Below, piece after piece: positions 10,488 to 15,450 of a stretch of 64,000 nt of DNA. The notes under the pieces were generated by a model that worked only from the letters and a program-made list of their open reading frames with translations, was not told where the DNA came from and did no database searches. The stretch is from positions 1,248,001 through 1,312,000 of the forward strand of contig CAWGHO010000002.1 in NCBI GenBank assembly GCA_963822445.1, in the 5' to 3' direction. The position numbers were made by a program, and so were the translations under genes. Source of the stretch: an uncultured Acidobacteriota bacterium (GTDB taxonomy: Bacteria; Acidobacteriota; Thermoanaerobaculia; Gp7-AA8). How positions within the stretch are numbered: position 1 is the stretch's first letter; each line of letters begins with the position of its first letter.

Positions 10488-11461
10488 TGCACAGTTCCCC
10501 CATCCCCGAATCCCACCCCTGCTTCGAGTACATCCGCCTCACGGACTCCGTGCCCGCCTCGCAACGCGACTGCATCGACATCGCGCTGCTGGACATGAAT
10601 CACTCCTGGCCGAATGTCGGGCACCACGCGCTGGTGCACGCGGTTCAGAAGACGGCCCAGGAGCTGCGCGAGGAGCTGGGGAAGATCAACGCGAAGGTTC
10701 GCGTGCTGTCGTACGACGTGCGCCGGCAGAACCTGATCCCGGAATCGCCGAACGGCCGCTTTCAGATTTACATCGGCACGGGCGGGCCGGGGCATCTCGA
10801 CCCGCGCCTGAACGACGGCATCAGCGAGACCAGTCAGGGCGTCGACGAAACGGATGCGTGGGAGAAGCCGCTGTTCCGCCTGTTCGACGACATCCTCGCC
10901 TCACGCACCGCGGCGATGCTCGCGATCTGCCACTCGTTCGGACTGGTATGCCGCTGGTCCGAGATCGCCCGCCCTGAGTTACGCCCCGAGAAGAGCTCGG
11001 GGATGCCGCTCAATCGCCTGTCACGCGAAGCACTGAATCATCCCTGGTTCGAGCAGTTCGCGCGCGAGCTTCCCGATCATCAGCATTTCCGCGTGGTGGA
11101 CAATCGTCTGTTCGATCTGATGCTGGAAAGCCCCGGCAAGAGCGCGCCGATCGCGTTCGAAGCCGCGGGCAGCACGGCGTTGACGATGGTGGAACTGGCC
11201 CGCGACCCGGAAGGCACGATGCCCCGGTTTCTCGGCGTGAATCATCATCCGGAGATCATCGACCGCGATCACATCATGCAGGTCCTCGACGCGAAACGCG
11301 CCCAGGGCGAGGTGAGCGATCAGTGGTACGAGGAACGCGCGGTGACGATGCGCGATCTGTTTCACGGGGAGCCGGAACGCCAGAGCCGCCTGACGTCGCA
11401 GTTCACGCTGCTGGCGCCTTTGCGCTTCCATCTCGAACGCGTGATTCGCGAGCGTTCCTAG
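10487..11461 (+). CDS. Class I glutamine amidotransferase-like protein
   Basis: GGPG oxyanion loop, AICHSFG nucleophile Cys, NHHPE His-Glu; TGATG overlap with hicB. Confidence 0.7.
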   Translation: MHSSPIPESHPCFEYIRLTDSVPASQRDCIDIALLDMNHSWPNVGHHALVHAVQKTAQELREELGKINAKVRVLSYDVRRQNLIPESPNGRFQIYIGTGGPGHLDPRLNDGISETSQGVDETDAWEKPLFRLFDDILASRTAAMLAICHSFGLVCRWSEIARPELRPEKSSGMPLNRLSREALNHPWFEQFARELPDHQHFRVVDNRLFDLMLESPGKSAPIAFEAAGSTALTMVELARDPEGTMPRFLGVNHHPEIIDRDHIMQVLDAKRAQGEVSDQWYEERAVTMRDLFHGEPERQSRLTSQFTLLAPLRFHLERVIRERS

Positions 11462-11602
11462 TTGCAACAGGGAACGACCGGGAGGCCTCCGGCGGGCCGG
11501 CACGGCCGGCAGCGCTGATGTTTGCGTAAACGCGATTCGCGCTAGATACCGTGAGCACGGCAGAAGGGACAACCAGCGCTGCCGGCCCGTGGCCGGCCCG
11601 CC
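11461..11602. repeat. REP-like inverted repeat (family A): left arm plus start of right arm, interrupted by IS110
   Basis: 11461-11517 is nearly the reverse complement of 11574-11602 joined to 13144-13172. Confidence 0.88.
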
Positions 11603-11609
11603 TATAGCT

Positions 11610-11865
11610 TGTCCGGCCGTCTCTCCGCTTCTCCCTCAGCCCTCAGAGAAGTACCCGTTGGGTGGCAATCGGGAGAATCGGGTTCAGGCGGCGCGATACT
11701 GAGAAGAAGGGTTCGTCCCGCTACGAATTCCGCCCGTGTTCGGATCGACGAATCCCTCCGGACTTTCGAGCGGGACGAAGTGCTTTGGCCCGAAACGCAT
11801 TCTCAGATGCTGTCGGAGCACGACTCGACTATAGGCCTTGCGCGCGGCCAAAGCCAACCCGAAGG
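11610..11865 (+). ncRNA. Putative IS110 bridge RNA (target- and donor-binding loops); ends approximate
   Basis: Stems 11712-22/11769-79 and 11782-90/11846-54 enclose segments matching the target and donor junction sequences. Confidence 0.8.
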
Positions 11866-11874
11866 GAGGGTGTG

Positions 11875-13119
11875 ATGAGCGAGTTCGAGTTTGGGGCGTT
11901 GGTGGGACTGGATTGGGGTGACACATCGCACGAGGTGGCTCTTTGGGACGAGCAGCAGCAGACGTGCACGAACGAGCGCATCGAGCACACGCCTGCGGCT
12001 CTGCGCGCATGGATCGAAGCGCTGCAGGCGCGCTTCGGCGGGGCACCGATCGCCGTGGCCATCGAGCAGTCCCGCGGCGCGGTCTTCGACGCGCTCAGCG
12101 GCTATCCGTTCGTCACGTTGTATCCGATCAACCCACGCAGTGCAGCCCGGTATCGTGAGGCGTTTCATCCGAGCCTTTCGAAAGACGATCCGACCGACGC
12201 GGCGTCCTTGCTCGACCTGCTCCGTAAGCACCGCAACGAGCTGCGCCCGTTCATCGCCGACGACGCTTCTACGCGGCTGCTGCGGCTTCTGACCGAGGAT
12301 CGGCGGGAGCTCGTCGATCAGAGGACGCAACACGTCCAACGCATGACCGATCGGCTCAAGACGTACTACCCGCAGGCGCTCCGGTGGGCCGGCGCGTTGA
12401 TTACGGCCCAGGCCTGTGACTTCCTCGAACGCTGGCCGACGCTCGAGGCCATCCAAAGGGCTCGGCCGTCCGCGATACGGAGGTTCTATGCGGGTCATCA
12501 TCACGCGGCCGCGTGGATCGACCAGAGGCTCGCCGAGATCCGTTCAGAGGTCGCGTTCCACGACGACCAGGTCACCACTGACGCTGCCGTGCTGCTGATC
12601 GGAAGCGAGGTTGCGCAGATCCGGGCCCTCAACACGAGCATCGCCACGTACGACCAGAAGATCTCGGCGGCGTTCGCCGCCCACCAGGACGCGTCGATCT
12701 TCGCGAGCTTCCCTGGCGCCGGCCAACAGCTCGCGCCGCGGCTCGCCGCCGCCTTCGGGACCGATCGCAAGCGCTTCGGCAGCGCCGTCAACGTCGCCAC
12801 CCGAAGCGGCATCGCCCCGGTTCTCCGCCGGAGCGGCAAAACGGCGGTCGTGCACATGCGCTGGGCCTGTCCGAAGTTCCTGCGTCAGACGTTCCATGAG
12901 TACGCCCGCGTGTCGATCGGTCAGTCCGAATGGGCTCGAGCCTTCTACAAGCAGCAACGCGCGCGCGGACACAGCCACCACGAGGCTATCCGCACGCTCG
13001 CTTACCGCTGGATCCGCGTCCTTTACGCCTGCTGGAACAATCGCACCGTCTACGACGAAGCTCTCTATCTGCGGCAGCTCGCCACCCGAGGCTCAACCCT
13101 CGCCACAGCTGCTCCCTGA
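11875..13119 (+). CDS. IS110-family recombinase (DEDD RuvC-like domain plus Tnp domain)
   Basis: GLDW, AIEQ and KDDPTDA give the DEDD residues; APVLRRSGK carries the candidate catalytic Ser; RBS GGAGG before ATG 11875. Confidence 0.95.
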   Translation: MSEFEFGALVGLDWGDTSHEVALWDEQQQTCTNERIEHTPAALRAWIEALQARFGGAPIAVAIEQSRGAVFDALSGYPFVTLYPINPRSAARYREAFHPSLSKDDPTDAASLLDLLRKHRNELRPFIADDASTRLLRLLTEDRRELVDQRTQHVQRMTDRLKTYYPQALRWAGALITAQACDFLERWPTLEAIQRARPSAIRRFYAGHHHAAAWIDQRLAEIRSEVAFHDDQVTTDAAVLLIGSEVAQIRALNTSIATYDQKISAAFAAHQDASIFASFPGAGQQLAPRLAAAFGTDRKRFGSAVNVATRSGIAPVLRRSGKTAVVHMRWACPKFLRQTFHEYARVSIGQSEWARAFYKQQRARGHSHHEAIRTLAYRWIRVLYACWNNRTVYDEALYLRQLATRGSTLATAAP

Positions 13120-13120
13120 C

Positions 13121-13126
13121 TTGACA
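13121..13126 (+). promoter_or_regulatory. -35 hexamer at the IS right end; completes a promoter with TATAGC (11603-11608) in the circular form
   Basis: TTGACA followed by exactly 17 nt to the end of the CC core. Confidence 0.75.
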
Positions 13127-13143
13127 GGAAGGCTCAGATGTCC

Positions 13144-13172
13144 GGAGGCCTCCCGTCGGTCCCTGTCGCAAC
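13144..13172. repeat. Remainder of the REP right arm displaced by IS110
   Basis: GGAGGCCTCCCGTCGGTCCCTGTCGCAAC is nearly the reverse complement of 11461-11490. Confidence 0.85.
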
Positions 13173-13209
13173 CAGGAACAATCAGCAACGACACGCGTCA
13201 ATTGGACAT

Positions 13210-14376
13210 ATGCGCAGATGGACACTGGCACTTCTCCTTCTCGTCGCTTGCGCCTCCGGCACGACCCAGCCGGCGACGACCACCGCTGACATCGTCGGAA
13301 CGCGTGTCCACATCCCTGTCTCCGTCAATGGCGCCGCGCCGGCGACGTTCATCCTCGATACCGGTGCGGTCAAATCGCCCGTCGATCCGAAGTACGCCGA
13401 AACGTTGGGCATCAAGTCGCGCGGGAGCGTGACGGCGCAGGGCGCCGGCGGATCGGTGAAAGTCGGTCTCGCTTCTGACCTGCGGATGTCCTTCGCCGGC
13501 CTCAACGCCAAGGTCGAAAAGAGCCCGATGACGCCTCTTGGTGCGATCAGCCTTCGCATCGGCCAGCCCGTCCATGGCGTTCTCGGCTACGACGTCATGC
13601 GCAAGTACGTCACCGAGATCGACTACGCGAACGAGCGCGTCACCTTCCATCCGCCGTCCTTCAGGCCGCCGGCCGAGGCCGTGCGTCTGCCGATCAGGTT
13701 CGATGGACATCTGCCGCTCGTCGACGCGCGCATCACCCTGCCCGATGGCCGCGAATTACATCCGCGGCTTCTCATCGATACCGGCGCGGGCAACGGGTTG
13801 ATCCTCACACGCGCTTACGTTGCGAAGTCGAAGATCGAGATCGAGCCGACCCTCGAGATCACCGGCGGTCTTGGGGTGGGGGGCGAGACCCGCACCCGCC
13901 TCGGGCGCATCGGCAGCCTTCAACTGGCCGGGTTCACGTTCGACAACCCGCTCGCTTCCATGTCGCGCGACACACGCGGCGTGCTCGCGAGCTCAGACTT
14001 CGATGGTCTGATCGGTGGTCCGATCCTGCGGCGATTCACGCTCTACGTCGACTACCCGCGCAAAGAATTCGCGTTCCTTCCCAATGCCGCGTTCCATACG
14101 CCGATCGAAGCCGACGGCAGCGGACTCGGACTCGCGTCGCGCGACCACAAGTTCGACACGGTGGTGATCCGCGAAGTGCTTTCGAACACGCCTGCGTCCG
14201 AGGCGGATCTGCGCGTGGGAGATGAGGTCGTTGCGGTCGATGGCAAAGCGGCCGTTCCGAAGGACCTCGACGAGATCCGCGAAGCATTCAGGGAGCACGG
14301 TCGGAGCTTCAGCCTCACCATCCGCCGCGACGGATCGCAATCGACGGTGACGCTCGTCACCCGCCGGCTCATCTGA
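13210..14376 (+). CDS. Lipoprotein aspartyl protease (two retropepsin-like domains) with C-terminal PDZ
   Basis: LVAC lipobox; FILDTGA and LLIDTGA; PDZ-like TPASEADLRVGDEVVAVDG. Confidence 0.85.
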   Translation: MRRWTLALLLLVACASGTTQPATTTADIVGTRVHIPVSVNGAAPATFILDTGAVKSPVDPKYAETLGIKSRGSVTAQGAGGSVKVGLASDLRMSFAGLNAKVEKSPMTPLGAISLRIGQPVHGVLGYDVMRKYVTEIDYANERVTFHPPSFRPPAEAVRLPIRFDGHLPLVDARITLPDGRELHPRLLIDTGAGNGLILTRAYVAKSKIEIEPTLEITGGLGVGGETRTRLGRIGSLQLAGFTFDNPLASMSRDTRGVLASSDFDGLIGGPILRRFTLYVDYPRKEFAFLPNAAFHTPIEADGSGLGLASRDHKFDTVVIREVLSNTPASEADLRVGDEVVAVDGKAAVPKDLDEIREAFREHGRSFSLTIRRDGSQSTVTLVTRRLI

Positions 14377-14400: not shown

Positions 14401-15450
14401 ATGCCCTCTCGCGGCCTGAACATCGTCGCCATCGGCGGCGGCACCGGACTGTCGACGCTCCTGCGCGGCCTCAAGCGCTACGTCGACGCCGAGGACGGCG
14501 CGTGGAACATCGCCAACCTCGGCGCAATCGTCACCGTCACCGACGAAGGAGGCAGCTCGGGCGTTCTGCGCAACGAGTTCGCGATGCTGCCGCCGGGCGA
14601 CATCCGCAATTGCATCGTTGCGCTGGCCGAGGAAGAGCAGCTTCTCTCGAAGCTCTTCTCGTATCGCTTCGACACCGACTCCGCCCTCAAAGGCCACTCC
14701 CTCGGCAACATCCTGCTGACGGCGATGACCCACATCACCGGCAGCTTCGACAACGCCATTCTTGCGGCGGCGGAAGTTCTGGCGATCCGCGGGGAGATCT
14801 ATCCGTCGACGCTATCGGATGTTCGCATCCGCGCGACGCTCGAAGACGGGACGGAGCTCGTGGGCGAGGTGGCGATCAGCGGATCCCACATCGGCGAGCA
14901 GCCGCGGACGACCATCCGCCACTCGCGCATCACGAGGCTGGCCATCGAGCCGGCCGATGCGCGACCGACCGATCGCGCGCTGGAAGCGCTCGCGTCCGCG
15001 GACCTGATCATCATCGGCCCGGGATCGCTCTACACCTCGGTGCTGCCGAATCTCGTCATTCAGCCGCTTGCCGAAGCGTTACGCCAGGCGAAGGCGTTGC
15101 GCGTGTACATCTGCAACGTGATGACCCAGCCGAACGAGACCGACTATTACGCGGCCGAGGATCACCTGGAGGCGATCGTGGAGCACGCCGGGCTCGCGGT
15201 CGACGTCATGGTCATCAACGGGCGGCGGCCGTCGGACACGATCCTGCAGACCTACGCGGCGATGAACCAGCAACCGGTGCAGTTCGATCTCGAGAAAATC
15301 CGCGATCTCGGCGTCACCCCGTTCTTCGGCGACATCATTGCAGAGGGCGACTTCGTGCGGCACGACCCGACGGCGCTCGCGCAGACGGTGTTCCGGCTGT
15401 ACGACCGCTACGGGCGCGGGCTCGAGCGCATGAGGAGGAGTGAAGGGTGA
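14401..15450 (+). CDS. yvcK: YvcK/GlmR family UDP-GlcNAc-binding gluconeogenesis factor
   Basis: IGGGTGLS, DEGGSSG, PPGDIRNC, GPGSLYTS. Confidence 0.9.
   Translation: MPSRGLNIVAIGGGTGLSTLLRGLKRYVDAEDGAWNIANLGAIVTVTDEGGSSGVLRNEFAMLPPGDIRNCIVALAEEEQLLSKLFSYRFDTDSALKGHSLGNILLTAMTHITGSFDNAILAAAEVLAIRGEIYPSTLSDVRIRATLEDGTELVGEVAISGSHIGEQPRTTIRHSRITRLAIEPADARPTDRALEALASADLIIIGPGSLYTSVLPNLVIQPLAEALRQAKALRVYICNVMTQPNETDYYAAEDHLEAIVEHAGLAVDVMVINGRRPSDTILQTYAAMNQQPVQFDLEKIRDLGVTPFFGDIIAEGDFVRHDPTALAQTVFRLYDRYGRGLERMRRSEG

What the first reader, a model, noticed from the sequence alone, without database searches (positions are those of the whole stretch)
11461..13172. IS110 sits in one arm of a REP hairpin whose other arm preserves the empty target
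Seen: deleting 11603-13143 rebuilds a ~170-bp inverted repeat. The right arm reads CCGGCCCG-CC-GGAGGCCTCCC, and the left arm (11480-11500, minus strand) has the same sequence unoccupied. This fixes the IS boundaries and a 2-nt CC core with no longer duplication. Known: IS621 and related IS110 elements target REP sequences. Inference: this IS is programmed against a lineage-specific REP family that offers many neutral landing sites.
Basis: partly seen in the sequence, partly recalled or inferred. Interest (0 to 1): 0.7.

Follow-up and report, generated by a model that had tools for sequence, protein, structure and literature searches.

The report
IS110 element in a REP-like hairpin
A 1.5-kb RNA-guided IS110-family insertion sequence sits in one arm of a repeated hairpin whose other arm still shows the empty target, which is a clear but ordinary example of a known habit of this IS family.

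Summary
Removing window 11603-13143 rebuilds a 170-nt hairpin (-80.1 kcal/mol, z -13.6). The left arm carries the same target, CCGGCCCG-CC-GGAGGCCTCCC, uninterrupted.

The insert is an intact IS110-group element. It has a DEDD plus Tnp transposase, a 272-nt left end and a 24-nt right end. A CC core is the only duplication.

The genome holds 9 full-length copies and 2 rearranged ones. All 10 left junctions follow CCCGCC and all 12 right junctions precede GGAGGC. Of 42 empty CCCGCCGGAGGC sites, 41 lie in one family of about 27 REP-like doublets. The 14-mer motif occurs in 29 of 35 genomes of the genus.

The left end encodes a bridge RNA with two stem/internal-loop modules. Their guide positions match the target and the IS ends. 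In relatives with other targets the guides covary with each element's own flanks, and the fold shows covariation.

REP targeting by IS110 elements, bridge RNAs and target stem-loops are all published, so this is a new member of a known kind.

The parts
11462..11519 (.). Left arm of the REP-like doublet. It starts 1 nt after the TAG stop of the upstream ORF.
   Evidence: Aligns with the rebuilt right arm at 53 of 61 identical columns.
11484..11497 (-). Unoccupied target in the left arm: GCCCG-CC-GGAGGCC on the minus strand, with the core at 11491-11492.
   Evidence: site C2:1259485, minus strand.
11520..11572 (.). Conserved asymmetric spacer, the apical part of the hairpin.
   Evidence: Alignment of 15 intact doublets and fold.
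11573..11602 (+). Loop-proximal part of the right arm. It holds a small GC-rich stem-loop (GCCGGCC-CGT-GGCCGGC), the left target (LT) CGGCCCG, and the flank copy of the CC core (11601-11602).
   Evidence: A stem-loop abutting the core was predicted at 50 of 51 sites.
11603..13143 (+). IS110-group insertion sequence, 1541 bp, no terminal inverted repeats.
   Evidence: 9 copies aligning over 1-1541; flanks.
11603..11608 (+). TATAGC, the candidate -10 hexamer of a promoter that forms only on the circular RE-LE junction.
   Evidence: TTGACA, 17 nt, TATAGC across the joined ends. No plus-strand promoter-like site was found in the integrated left end.
11603..11709 (+). 5' domain of the non-coding left end, a long stem-loop.
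   Evidence: Based on minimum-free-energy and alifold predictions only, so weakly supported.
11712..11779 (+). Target-binding module (TBL): a basal stem, an internal loop and a distal hairpin.
   Evidence: Helix 1 is 91% paired with 9 of 15 pairs changed on both sides. Helix 2 has 3 of 4 pairs changed on both sides.
11730..11738 (+). Left target guide (LTG) CCGCCCG plus two core positions UG. It is same-sense as the LT. It matches 7 of 7 at GCCGCCCG-type sites and 6 of 7 at this site.
   Evidence: In sister L010 the same positions read GGCCCGCC, including the core.
11755..11763 (+). Right target guide (RTG) CCUCC plus GG, the reverse complement of core + GGAGG. It is followed by handshake positions AC, which are complementary to the donor GT next to the core.
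   Evidence: The handshake concept comes from the passages read.
11782..11854 (+). Donor-binding module (DBL): a basal stem, a second stem, an internal loop and a distal hairpin.
   Evidence: Helix 3 has 7 of 11 pairs changed on both sides. Helix 4 is 100% paired, with an AU/CG swap in 8 of 18 sequences.
11804..11812 (+). Left donor guide (LDG) CAGAUGC plus UG. It is same-sense as the right-end (RE) tip CAGATGT-CC and matches 6 of 7. The match extends upstream as CTCAGATG.
11829..11837 (+). Right donor guide (RDG) CUAUA plus GG, the reverse complement of core + TATAG. It is followed by CC, whose first C can pair with target position 7 (G).
11875..13119 (+). Transposase/recombinase CDS, 414 aa. 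A GGGAGG ribosome-binding site lies at 11864-11869.
   Evidence: The ORF is intact in all 9 full copies.
13120..13143 (+). Right end, 24 nt. It holds TTGACA at 13121-13126 (candidate -35) and the IS-end copy of the CC core at 13142-13143.
13144..13172 (+). Distal part of the right arm: right target (RT) GGAGGCC, then ...CGTCGGTCCCTGTCGCAAC.

Best explanation
Window 11603-13143 is an intact, probably still mobile IS110-group insertion sequence. Its DEDD/Ser recombinase is guided by a bridge RNA encoded in the 272-nt left end.

The target-binding loop pairs with GCCCG-CC-GGAGG. This motif occurs almost only in the arms of a genus-wide family of roughly 150-170-nt REP-like doublets. Each doublet has two convergent GC-rich hairpin units around a conserved spacer, so each offers two target sites on opposite strands. 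Here the right arm was hit and the left arm was not. That is why the left arm displays the empty site and fixes the breakpoints at the CC core.

The donor-binding loop pairs with the joined IS ends (CAGATGT-CC-TATAG). The same junction would create a TTGACA-17-TATAGC promoter on the excised circle.

Shown here: the anatomy, the boundaries, the site specificity of all copies, guide complementarity, guide/flank covariation in relatives, and structural covariation.

Inferred: transcription of the RNA, circle formation, present-day activity, and any role of the target stem-loop.
For: Protein. Pfam DEDD_Tnp_IS110 scores 99.9 bits and Transposase_20 scores 45.1 bits. NCBIfam NF033542 'IS110 family RNA-guided transposase' scores 143.2 bits against a cut-off of 140. 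D13, E64, D105, D108 and S320-G321 are invariant in an 11-sequence alignment spanning 41-89% identity. The IS621 catalytic set is D11/E60/D102/D105/S241 (passages read). D105/D108 and the S-G motif align to the IS621 chain. The 414-aa ORF is intact in 9 of 9 full copies.

Site specificity. 10 of 10 left junctions follow CCCGCC and 12 of 12 right junctions precede GGAGGC in this genome. Insertions occur in either arm: 4 in one, 4 in the other, and 1 in a single-hairpin form. In related genomes all 16 distinct right junctions read GGAGGC, and 6 of 12 distinct left junctions read CCCGCC. 41 of 42 empty 12-mer sites lie in the repeat family.

Guides. RTG CCUCCGG is the reverse complement of core + RT. 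LTG CCGCCCG is same-sense as the LT. RDG CUAUAGG is the reverse complement of core + RD (the right donor half, the TATAG start of the left end). LDG CUCAGAUG is same-sense as LD (the left donor half, the right-end tip). Each sits on the strand and loop side described for IS621 (model from passages read). Handshake positions fit the published scheme.

Covariation of guides. A Vicinamibacterales relative with a 52% identical protein has the target ACCTCCC-CC-ATGCC. At the homologous loop positions it carries ACCUCCCC and CGGCAUGG. Of 19 loci examined, 12 have a loop k-mer abutting the TATAG left-end start and 14 have the 3'-loop complement at the RE junction. The mean longest shared run between each element's loop and its own (cognate) flanks, against other elements' (non-cognate) flanks, is 6.6 vs 4.24 for LT and 8.5 vs 4.69 for RT.

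Structure. Over 18 relatives, 86.8% of cells are paired, against 29.7-44.5% when partners are slid. 22 of 37 pairs change on both sides. The covariation score is 0.412 against 0.160 +/- 0.014 for shuffles, with 0 of 500 shuffles reaching it.

Ends. The long left end and short right end fit the IS110 group. The junction promoter geometry was measured.
Against: Guides. The window copy's LTG matches its own LT at only 6 of 7 positions. The two LTG and the two LDG 'core' positions read UG against a CC core, which allows one possible G-U wobble and one mismatch. For IS621, pairing with both strands of the core is reported as strongly preferred.

Structure. The DBL fold from RNAalifold on six close relatives differed from the model used here. 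The model rests on a constrained MFE plus the 18-sequence covariation count. That alignment includes the sequence the structure was derived from.

Relatedness to solved structures. Similarity to the solved IS621 and ISCro4 recombinases is weak (E 3e-4 and 1.8e-5, C-terminal domain only). The equivalence of D13 and E64 with IS621 residues therefore rests on invariance and position, not on an alignment.

Missing evidence. Rfam has no matching family.

Degenerate sites. In genome G036 the 7 recovered left flanks are degenerate: 1 reads CCCGCC, 5 read other xCCGCC, and 1 reads CGACC. Left-side pairing alone therefore does not define the sites.
Confidence: 0.9

Rival explanations
1. The copies did not arrive by targeted transposition. 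An IS-bearing repeat was instead spread by segmental duplication, or by homologous recombination or gene conversion between REP-like elements.
For: The copies are very similar (96.4-100%). The repeat elements provide about 150 nt of homology around each copy.
Against: Sequence beyond the repeat differs at every copy. Copies sit in either arm relative to the asymmetric spacer, and one sits in a single-hairpin variant. Related elements in other species use the same junction, and more distant relatives use different junctions that match their own loops.
Confidence: 0.03
2. Target choice is made mainly by the recombinase reading the DNA hairpin of the repeat. The apparent RNA guides play little part.
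For: A 7-10-bp GC-rich stem-loop abuts the core at 50 of 51 sites, with compensating changes between variants and species. A preprint reports that such a stem-loop acts as a specificity determinant for ISPpu10 (abstract and sections 3 and 7 read). LTG pairing is imperfect here and the G036 left flanks are degenerate.
Against: The loop sequences change together with the flanks in relatives that target non-hairpin sequence. The right guide matches 7 of 7, plus 2 handshake positions, in every copy. As an added layer on top of RNA pairing this idea is plausible, at about 0.35. As the sole mechanism it is unlikely.
Confidence: 0.05
3. The hairpin is not a REP-type repeat. It is a MITE or a structured-RNA gene, and the IS has disrupted a functional element rather than landing in a neutral site.
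For: A size of 150-170 nt with long inverted arms and a conserved asymmetric spacer is typical of a MITE. No RAYT gene lies near any copy. The element sits 1 nt after a stop codon, where it could act as a terminator or a stabiliser.
Against: No target-site duplication is evident in the 15-copy alignment, though this was not formally tested. Rfam gave no hit above threshold. REP dimers with conserved 20-100-bp spacers that fold as one large stem-loop are described (passages read). This rival concerns the nature of the target only. It leaves the IS mechanism unchanged.
Confidence: 0.15

Closest known systems
IS621 (E. coli; IS110 group), the bridge-RNA prototype (PMC11208160 and PMC11208158, passages read)
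   Same: It has a DEDD plus Ser recombinase, a long left end encoding an RNA with target- and donor-binding internal loops, and a 2-nt core shared by target and donor. The left guides are same-sense and the right guides antisense. Handshake positions lie 3' of the right guides. A -35/-10 promoter is split across the circle junction. It inserts naturally into REP sequences.
   Different: The core here is CC, not CT. The protein is only distantly related (phmmer E 3e-4, C-terminal domain only) and is 414 aa against 326 aa. The left end is 272 nt, with a roughly 100-nt 5' domain, against a 177-nt bridge RNA. The left guides carry UG at the core positions. The host is an acidobacterial lineage.
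ISPpu10 and ISPpu9 of Pseudomonas putida (bioRxiv 10.64898/2026.03.19.712850, abstract and sections 3 and 7 read; PMC12288879, abstract read)
   Same: All copies sit in one conserved REP sequence. The target has a GC-rich 5' stem-loop whose 3' half overlaps the left target. Many targets occur as convergent pairs less than 200 bp apart. A hybrid promoter forms on ISPpu10 circles.
   Different: The phylum and the repeat family differ. Here the convergent pair plus spacer is itself the conserved unit.
REP dimers / BIME-like elements (PMC3733652, passages read)
   Same: They are short GC-rich palindromic units, mostly in inverted pairs with conserved 20-100-bp spacers that can fold into one large stem-loop. 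Their abundance varies widely between related genomes.
   Different: There is no GTAG tag. A CGTC or GGTC motif occurs 10-14 nt outside the core in 35 of 41 arms, but the stem and loop dimensions do not fit the described CGTC families. No RAYT association was found.

Membership tests
IS110 family, IS110 group (bridge-RNA-guided recombinase elements) | Recombinase with an N-terminal RuvC-like DEDD domain and a C-terminal Tnp domain | tested here: met
   PF01548 scores 99.9 bits (cut-off 29) over residues 10-166. PF02371 scores 45.1 bits (cut-off 21.3) over residues 274-359. NF033542 scores 143.2 bits against a cut-off of 140.
IS110 family, IS110 group (bridge-RNA-guided recombinase elements) | Catalytic D-E-D-D plus Ser (followed by Gly) | tested here: met
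   D13, E64, D105, D108, S320 and G321 are invariant in 11 sequences. D105/D108 and S320-G321 align with the IS621 chain. The IS621 residues come from the passages read. The equivalence of D13 and E64 rests on position and invariance only.
IS110 family, IS110 group (bridge-RNA-guided recombinase elements) | No terminal inverted repeats; a 2-nt core shared by flank and IS end; no longer target duplication | tested here: met
   Only CC is shared, at all 9 full copies.
IS110 family, IS110 group (bridge-RNA-guided recombinase elements) | Long non-coding left end and short right end (the reverse holds in the IS1111 group) | tested here: met
   The left end is 272 nt and the right end 24 nt.
IS110 family, IS110 group (bridge-RNA-guided recombinase elements) | Left-end RNA with two internal loops whose sides pair with LT (bottom strand), RT (top strand), LD and RD | tested here: met
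   The RNA itself was not observed.
IS110 family, IS110 group (bridge-RNA-guided recombinase elements) | Promoter reconstituted across the RE-LE junction of the excised circle | tested here: met
   Sequence level only: TTGACA, 17 nt, TATAGC. No plus-strand promoter-like site was found in the integrated left end.
IS110 family, IS110 group (bridge-RNA-guided recombinase elements) | Circular intermediate and precise excision | not testable with these tools
REP / REPtron (RAYT-associated repetitive extragenic palindromes) | Short imperfect palindrome repeated many times | tested here: met
   The 14-mer occurs 34 times against 0.86 expected. There are 27 doublets plus 6 of a second subfamily. Relatives carry up to 292 motif copies. 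A hairpin is predicted at 50 of 51 sites.
REP / REPtron (RAYT-associated repetitive extragenic palindromes) | Conserved GTAG (or CGTC) tetranucleotide at one end of the palindrome | tested here: inconclusive
   GTAG or CTAC occurs in 4 of 41 arms, CGTC in 22 of 41, GGTC in 13 of 41, and neither CGTC nor GGTC in 6 of 41. The stem and loop dimensions do not fit the described CGTC families.
REP / REPtron (RAYT-associated repetitive extragenic palindromes) | A RAYT (Y1 transposase) gene flanked by the repeats | tested here: not met
   There are 4 Y1_Tnp matches (23.6-37.4 bits). None has a target-like site within 3 kb.
REP / REPtron (RAYT-associated repetitive extragenic palindromes) | Extragenic location | tested here: inconclusive
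   The window copy lies between a stop codon (11459-11461) and the next gene. The genome-wide open-frame test was uninformative in this GC-rich genome: 11 of 15 elements, against 92% of random windows, were covered by an open frame of at least 200 codons.
MITE | Terminal inverted repeats plus a target-site duplication, with a related autonomous transposon | tested here: inconclusive
   Long inverted arms are present. No consistent flanking duplication is visible in the 15-copy alignment. No formal TSD scan was made and no search for a parent element.
ISPpu10-type 'dual-match' targets | Target-encoded 5' stem-loop whose 3' half overlaps the left target | tested here: met
   50 of 51 sites fold into a 7-10-bp stem ending 0-3 nt from the core. 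Compensating variants occur within the genome and in relatives. A functional role is not testable here.

The most novel reading that the evidence does not exclude
These REP-like doublets have no RAYT partner in this genome. They may not be merely a passive landing pad. They could be propagated, or kept homogeneous, by the IS110 recombinase and bridge-RNA machinery itself. For example, each arm could be used as a pseudo-donor or half-match substrate, so that IS and repeat would form a mutualistic pair.

A milder version is that the conserved stem-loop abutting the core is a general second specificity layer of IS110 targeting. In that case it would be ancestral, not a Pseudomonas peculiarity. 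I put the milder version at about 0.35.
Probability: 0.04. Interest if true: 0.7.

Novelty: new member of a known kind. Interest (0 to 1): 0.25.

Why it matters
This case extends the known pattern, an IS110 element with a bridge RNA that targets a host REP-like hairpin, to a lineage whose nearest named relatives are Thermoanaerobaculia MAGs (Acidobacteriota).

It also supplies a clean natural data set:
- 53 target arms in one genome, of which 12 were hit.
- Sister elements in at least 7 other genomes of the genus.
- A conserved RNA scaffold (GCUACGAA...UUCGAGC) found in 34 of 72 related loci, in which only the guide positions vary.

That scaffold could help in mining CC-core and CT-core bridge recombinases.

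The paired-arm logic is a useful annotation trick. The unhit arm of a convergent repeat shows the empty site, which fixes the boundaries of elements that have no inverted repeats.

Nothing here changes the current understanding of the family.

Tried and rejected
Rfam. A search of 11300-13400 at E up to 1 gave only a microRNA-precursor model (24.1 bits against a gathering score of 150) and BTH_s19 (14.9 against 153). Both are chance matches to hairpins.

RNAalifold. On six close relatives it gave a different DBL pairing and only 3 compensated pairs, because these sequences barely vary there. I replaced it with an 18-sequence alignment of more distant relatives.

Guide assignment. I first considered GGCCCG at 11787-11792 as the left target guide. 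I rejected it because it lies in the basal stem of the DBL and is invariant in relatives with other targets. I also considered reading the LTG as UCCGCC including the core. I rejected that because sister elements read GGCCCG-CC, GGCCCG-CA and AGCCCG-CA at the same columns.

Intergenic location. The genome-wide open-frame test was uninformative.

First boundary script. The first automatic boundary script was too strict and returned only 1 locus. The repaired one still mis-anchors L011, whose left end is truncated. Its non-cognate set also contains sister elements that share targets, which narrows the contrast.

Conspecific empty allele. None was found. Genus genomes are at most about 81% identical at the flanking gene. 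The best metagenome contigs are at most 79% aa identical.

Subfamily and arm preference. 0 of 12 arms of the GCCGCC subfamily are occupied, against 10 of 51 arms of the main family. No element has both arms carrying intact copies. The numbers are too small to conclude anything from either point.

Supplements of the papers were closed. The guide coordinates and bridge-RNA tables there may bear on the exact guide lengths.


Full report
OBSERVATION

The sequence reads ...GTGGCCGGCCCGCC | TATAGCTTGTCC ... GCTCAGATGTCC | GGAGGCCTCCCGTCGG..., with the bars after 11602 and after 13143. The reverse complement of 11480-11500 is CCGGCCCGCCGGAGGCCTCCC.

The repeat finder reports a perfect 14-nt inverted repeat spanning the insert (11479-11492 with 13142-13155), plus inner arm pairs. 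After removing 11603-13143, the two arms align with 53 identical columns of 61. The 170-nt element then folds into one long hairpin of -80.1 kcal/mol, against -38.0 +/- 3.1 for 200 shuffles (z -13.6). Only CC is shared between the flank and the IS end.

THE INSERT

The ORF 11875-13119 encodes 414 aa.
- Pfam DEDD_Tnp_IS110: 1.6e-28, covering the whole model.
- Pfam Transposase_20: 1.3e-11.
- NCBIfam NF033542 'IS110 family RNA-guided transposase': 143.2 bits against a cut-off of 140.
- D13, E64, D105, D108 and S320-G321 are invariant in an alignment of 11 relatives at 41-89% identity.

The IS621 catalytic set is D11/E60/D102/D105/S241, with a conserved G242 (passages read). The D..D and S-G motifs align to the IS621 chain. 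Overall similarity to the solved IS621 and ISCro4 proteins is weak (E 3e-4 and 1.8e-5).

The element has a 272-nt left end and a 24-nt right end. That is the IS110-group arrangement, not the IS1111 one.

COPIES AND FLANKS

The genome has 3 contigs, 6.0 Mb and 64% G+C, and the window is C2:1248001-1312000. It holds 9 copies that align over exactly 1-1541 at 96.4-100% identity. All 9 have an intact 414-aa ORF.

There are two further, rearranged copies:
- C3:469301-470841 has IS positions 415-575 inverted.
- C1:940357-941431 is a palindromic remnant with two right ends facing outward.

Every left junction (10 of 10) follows CCCGCC. Every right junction (12 of 12) precedes GGAGGC. Beyond the repeat element the flanks are unrelated, so these are independent insertions. 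Relative to the asymmetric spacer, 4 full copies lie in one arm and 4 in the other. One lies in a short single-hairpin form of the repeat.

THE TARGET FAMILY

- GCCCGCCGGAGGCC occurs 34 times against 0.86 expected from base composition.
- Of 42 exact CCCGCCGGAGGC sites, 41 lie in one repeat family.
- Grouping gives 15 doublets with both arms empty (one arm of one doublet has a mismatch), 10 doublets with one arm occupied and the partner empty, and 2 with one degenerate arm. That makes 27 elements.
- A second subfamily reads GCCGCC|GGAGGC. It has 6 doublets and none is occupied.

The consensus runs about 150 nt, from GGGAACGACG to CGTCGTTCCC, around a conserved spacer of about 66 nt.

Each arm contains a small GC-rich stem-loop directly 5' of the core. 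At 50 of 51 sites a 7-10-bp stem ends 0-3 nt from the core. Variants differ by compensating changes, such as GCCGGCC/GGCCGGC, GCGGCC/GGCCGC and GCCGGC/GCCGGC.

No GTAG tag is present. CGTC or GGTC lies 10-14 nt outside the core in 35 of 41 arms. The genome has four weak Y1-transposase matches, and none lies within 3 kb of a site. The family is therefore REP-like in form: inverted dimers with a conserved spacer, as described in the passages read. It is not a demonstrated RAYT-type REP.

DISTRIBUTION

The closest transposase relatives (83-89% aa) are on contigs titled Thermoanaerobaculia bacterium MAGs.

The 14-mer occurs in 29 of 35 genomes of the genus, including this one and the unpublished G002 and G032 (27 of 33 without those two). 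Counts reach 292, 239, 179 and 148. The reversed-pattern control gives 0-1 per genome.

DNA of the IS matches at E <= 0.001 in 14 of 35 genomes. Near-full-length copies (79-87% identity) occur only in G043, G038, G035, G036 and G009. End fragments at contig ends occur in G036, G039 and G041.

In these relatives all 16 distinct right junctions read GGAGGC. Left junctions read CCCGCC in 5 of 5 distinct cases outside G036. In G036 only 1 of 7 reads CCCGCC, 5 read other xCCGCC and 1 reads CGACC. G036 has no copy of the 14-mer.

G008 has 292 motif copies and no IS match. The repeat therefore does not depend on the IS.

THE LOCUS IN RELATIVES

In five related species the upstream gene is followed directly by the YvcK-like gene, with no repeat. 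These are L002, L003, L004, L008 and L007, the last from the unpublished G002. In G007 an unoccupied doublet sits there.

Among the 19 closest metagenome loci (74-79% aa), 2 have an unoccupied doublet directly after the gene.

No conspecific record was found. The empty allele of this exact locus was therefore not seen. The evidence for the breakpoints is the partner arm, the 41 paralogous empty sites and these orthologous-position doublets.

BRIDGE RNA

The published model (passages read) is this. [quoted passage not shown] The donor guides follow the same scheme. The core is included in each pairing.

In the left end I find two stem/internal-loop/hairpin modules.

Target-binding module, 11712-11779:
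- CCGCCCG then UG lies on the 5' side (11730-11738).
- CCUCC-GG lies on the 3' side (11755-11761). It is the exact complement of CC+GGAGG.
- AC follows (11762-11763). It is complementary to the donor GT next to the core, where the handshake positions of IS621 lie.

Donor-binding module, 11782-11854:
- CAGAUGC then UG lies at 11804-11812. The donor reads CAGATGT-CC, and the match extends upstream as CTCAGATG.
- CUAUA-GG lies at 11829-11835. It is the complement of CC+TATAG.
- C follows, and can pair with target position 7 (G).

The left target guide matches GCCGCCCG-type sites at 7 of 7 and this site at 6 of 7. The UG at the core positions of both left guides is a departure from full core pairing. 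Sister elements read CC, CA or UG there.

The distal TBL stem shows a compensated U-A to C-G change among close relatives.

COVARIATION WITH OTHER TARGETS

34 of 72 related loci keep the frame GCTACGAA...TTCGAGC with variable sequence inside.

A multi-copy Vicinamibacterales element (52% aa identity) inserts at ACCTCCC-CC|ATGCC. It carries ACCUCCCC and CGGCAUGG at the homologous loop positions. In its donor loop it carries CUCAGAUGUC and ACUAUAGG.

Of 19 loci examined, 12 have a 5'-loop k-mer of 6-9 nt ending at or 1 nt before the TATAG left-end start. 14 have the complement of the 3' loop (6-10 nt) at the RE junction. Several of these elements use a CT core.

In a cognate versus non-cognate control on 10 distinct elements, the mean longest shared run was 6.6 vs 4.24 for the left side and 8.5 vs 4.69 for the right side. 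This holds despite one mis-anchored locus and despite sister elements sharing targets.

On an 18-sequence alignment, the two-module structure has 86.8% of cells paired, against 29.7-44.5% with slid partners. 22 of 37 pairs change on both sides. The covariation score is 0.412 against 0.160 +/- 0.014, with 0 of 500 shuffles reaching it. The structure was derived from one of the aligned sequences, which favours it somewhat.

EXPRESSION LOGIC (INFERRED)

Joining the right end to the left end gives TTGACA, 17 nt, TATAGC. In the integrated state the scan finds no plus-strand promoter-like site in the left end. This is the arrangement reported for IS621 and ISPpu10.

COMPARISON AND VERDICT

All of the following are in print:
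- REP targeting by IS110 elements (reference lists).
- Bridge RNAs.
- Handshake guides.
- Circle-junction promoters.
- A target-encoded 5' stem-loop, with convergent REP pairs less than 200 bp apart.

One literature search for REPs in Acidobacteria found no description of this repeat family (listing only, plus passages of one paper). I ran no search on IS110 elements in this lineage.

The finding is real and its interpretation is right, but it is a new member of a known kind. 

Noticed in passing
window 13210-14376 (ORF listed from 13138): The aspartyl-protease/PDZ gene downstream of the IS (Pfam Asp_protease_2 and PDZ_6) is absent from the orthologous position in six related species. There the upstream gene is followed directly by the YvcK-like gene found at window 14401-15450. 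The ORF's first ATG at 13138 lies inside the IS right end. The likely true start is the ATG at 13210, ahead of a lipoprotein-like signal (LLLLVAC).
   Followed up: partly
genome C1:940357-941431 (outside the window): A palindromic IS remnant. IS positions 1541 to 847 (reversed) are joined to 1161 to 1541. Both outer ends are right ends flanked by GGAGGCCTCCCGGTGTG in inverted orientation. It looks like a doublet that was occupied in both arms and then lost the two left ends and the spacer.
   Followed up: partly
genome C3:469301-470841 (outside the window): An IS copy in the usual target with IS positions 415-575 inverted. The inversion is bounded by short inverted TCGAA repeats and breaks the transposase ORF. 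It could also be an assembly artefact.
   Followed up: partly
G036 loci L105-L113: A sister IS (about 85-89% identical) is multi-copy in a genome that has no copy of the 14-mer target. Its 7 recovered left flanks are degenerate (mostly xCCGCC), while the right flanks keep GGAGGCC. This is a natural case of relaxed left-side matching.
   Followed up: partly
genome, 6 doublets (e.g. C1:1042500-1042630, C2:996109-996237, C3:607757-607884): A second doublet subfamily has GCCGCC|GGAGGC in both arms, with the arms 82-131 nt apart. None of its 12 arms carries the IS.
   Followed up: no
loci L012-L018, L021 (Vicinamibacterales MAG contigs): A related CC-core IS110 element is present in at least 8 copies. 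All are inserted in another repeated sequence...ACCTCCCCC|ATGCCGCCTTCGCCGATC..., which does not look like a hairpin repeat. The nature of that target was not examined.
   Followed up: no
window 11478-11617: Rfam's best match here is a plant microRNA-precursor model (24.1 bits against a gathering score of 150, E 0.11). It is a generic long-hairpin match, not a real family assignment.
   Followed up: yes
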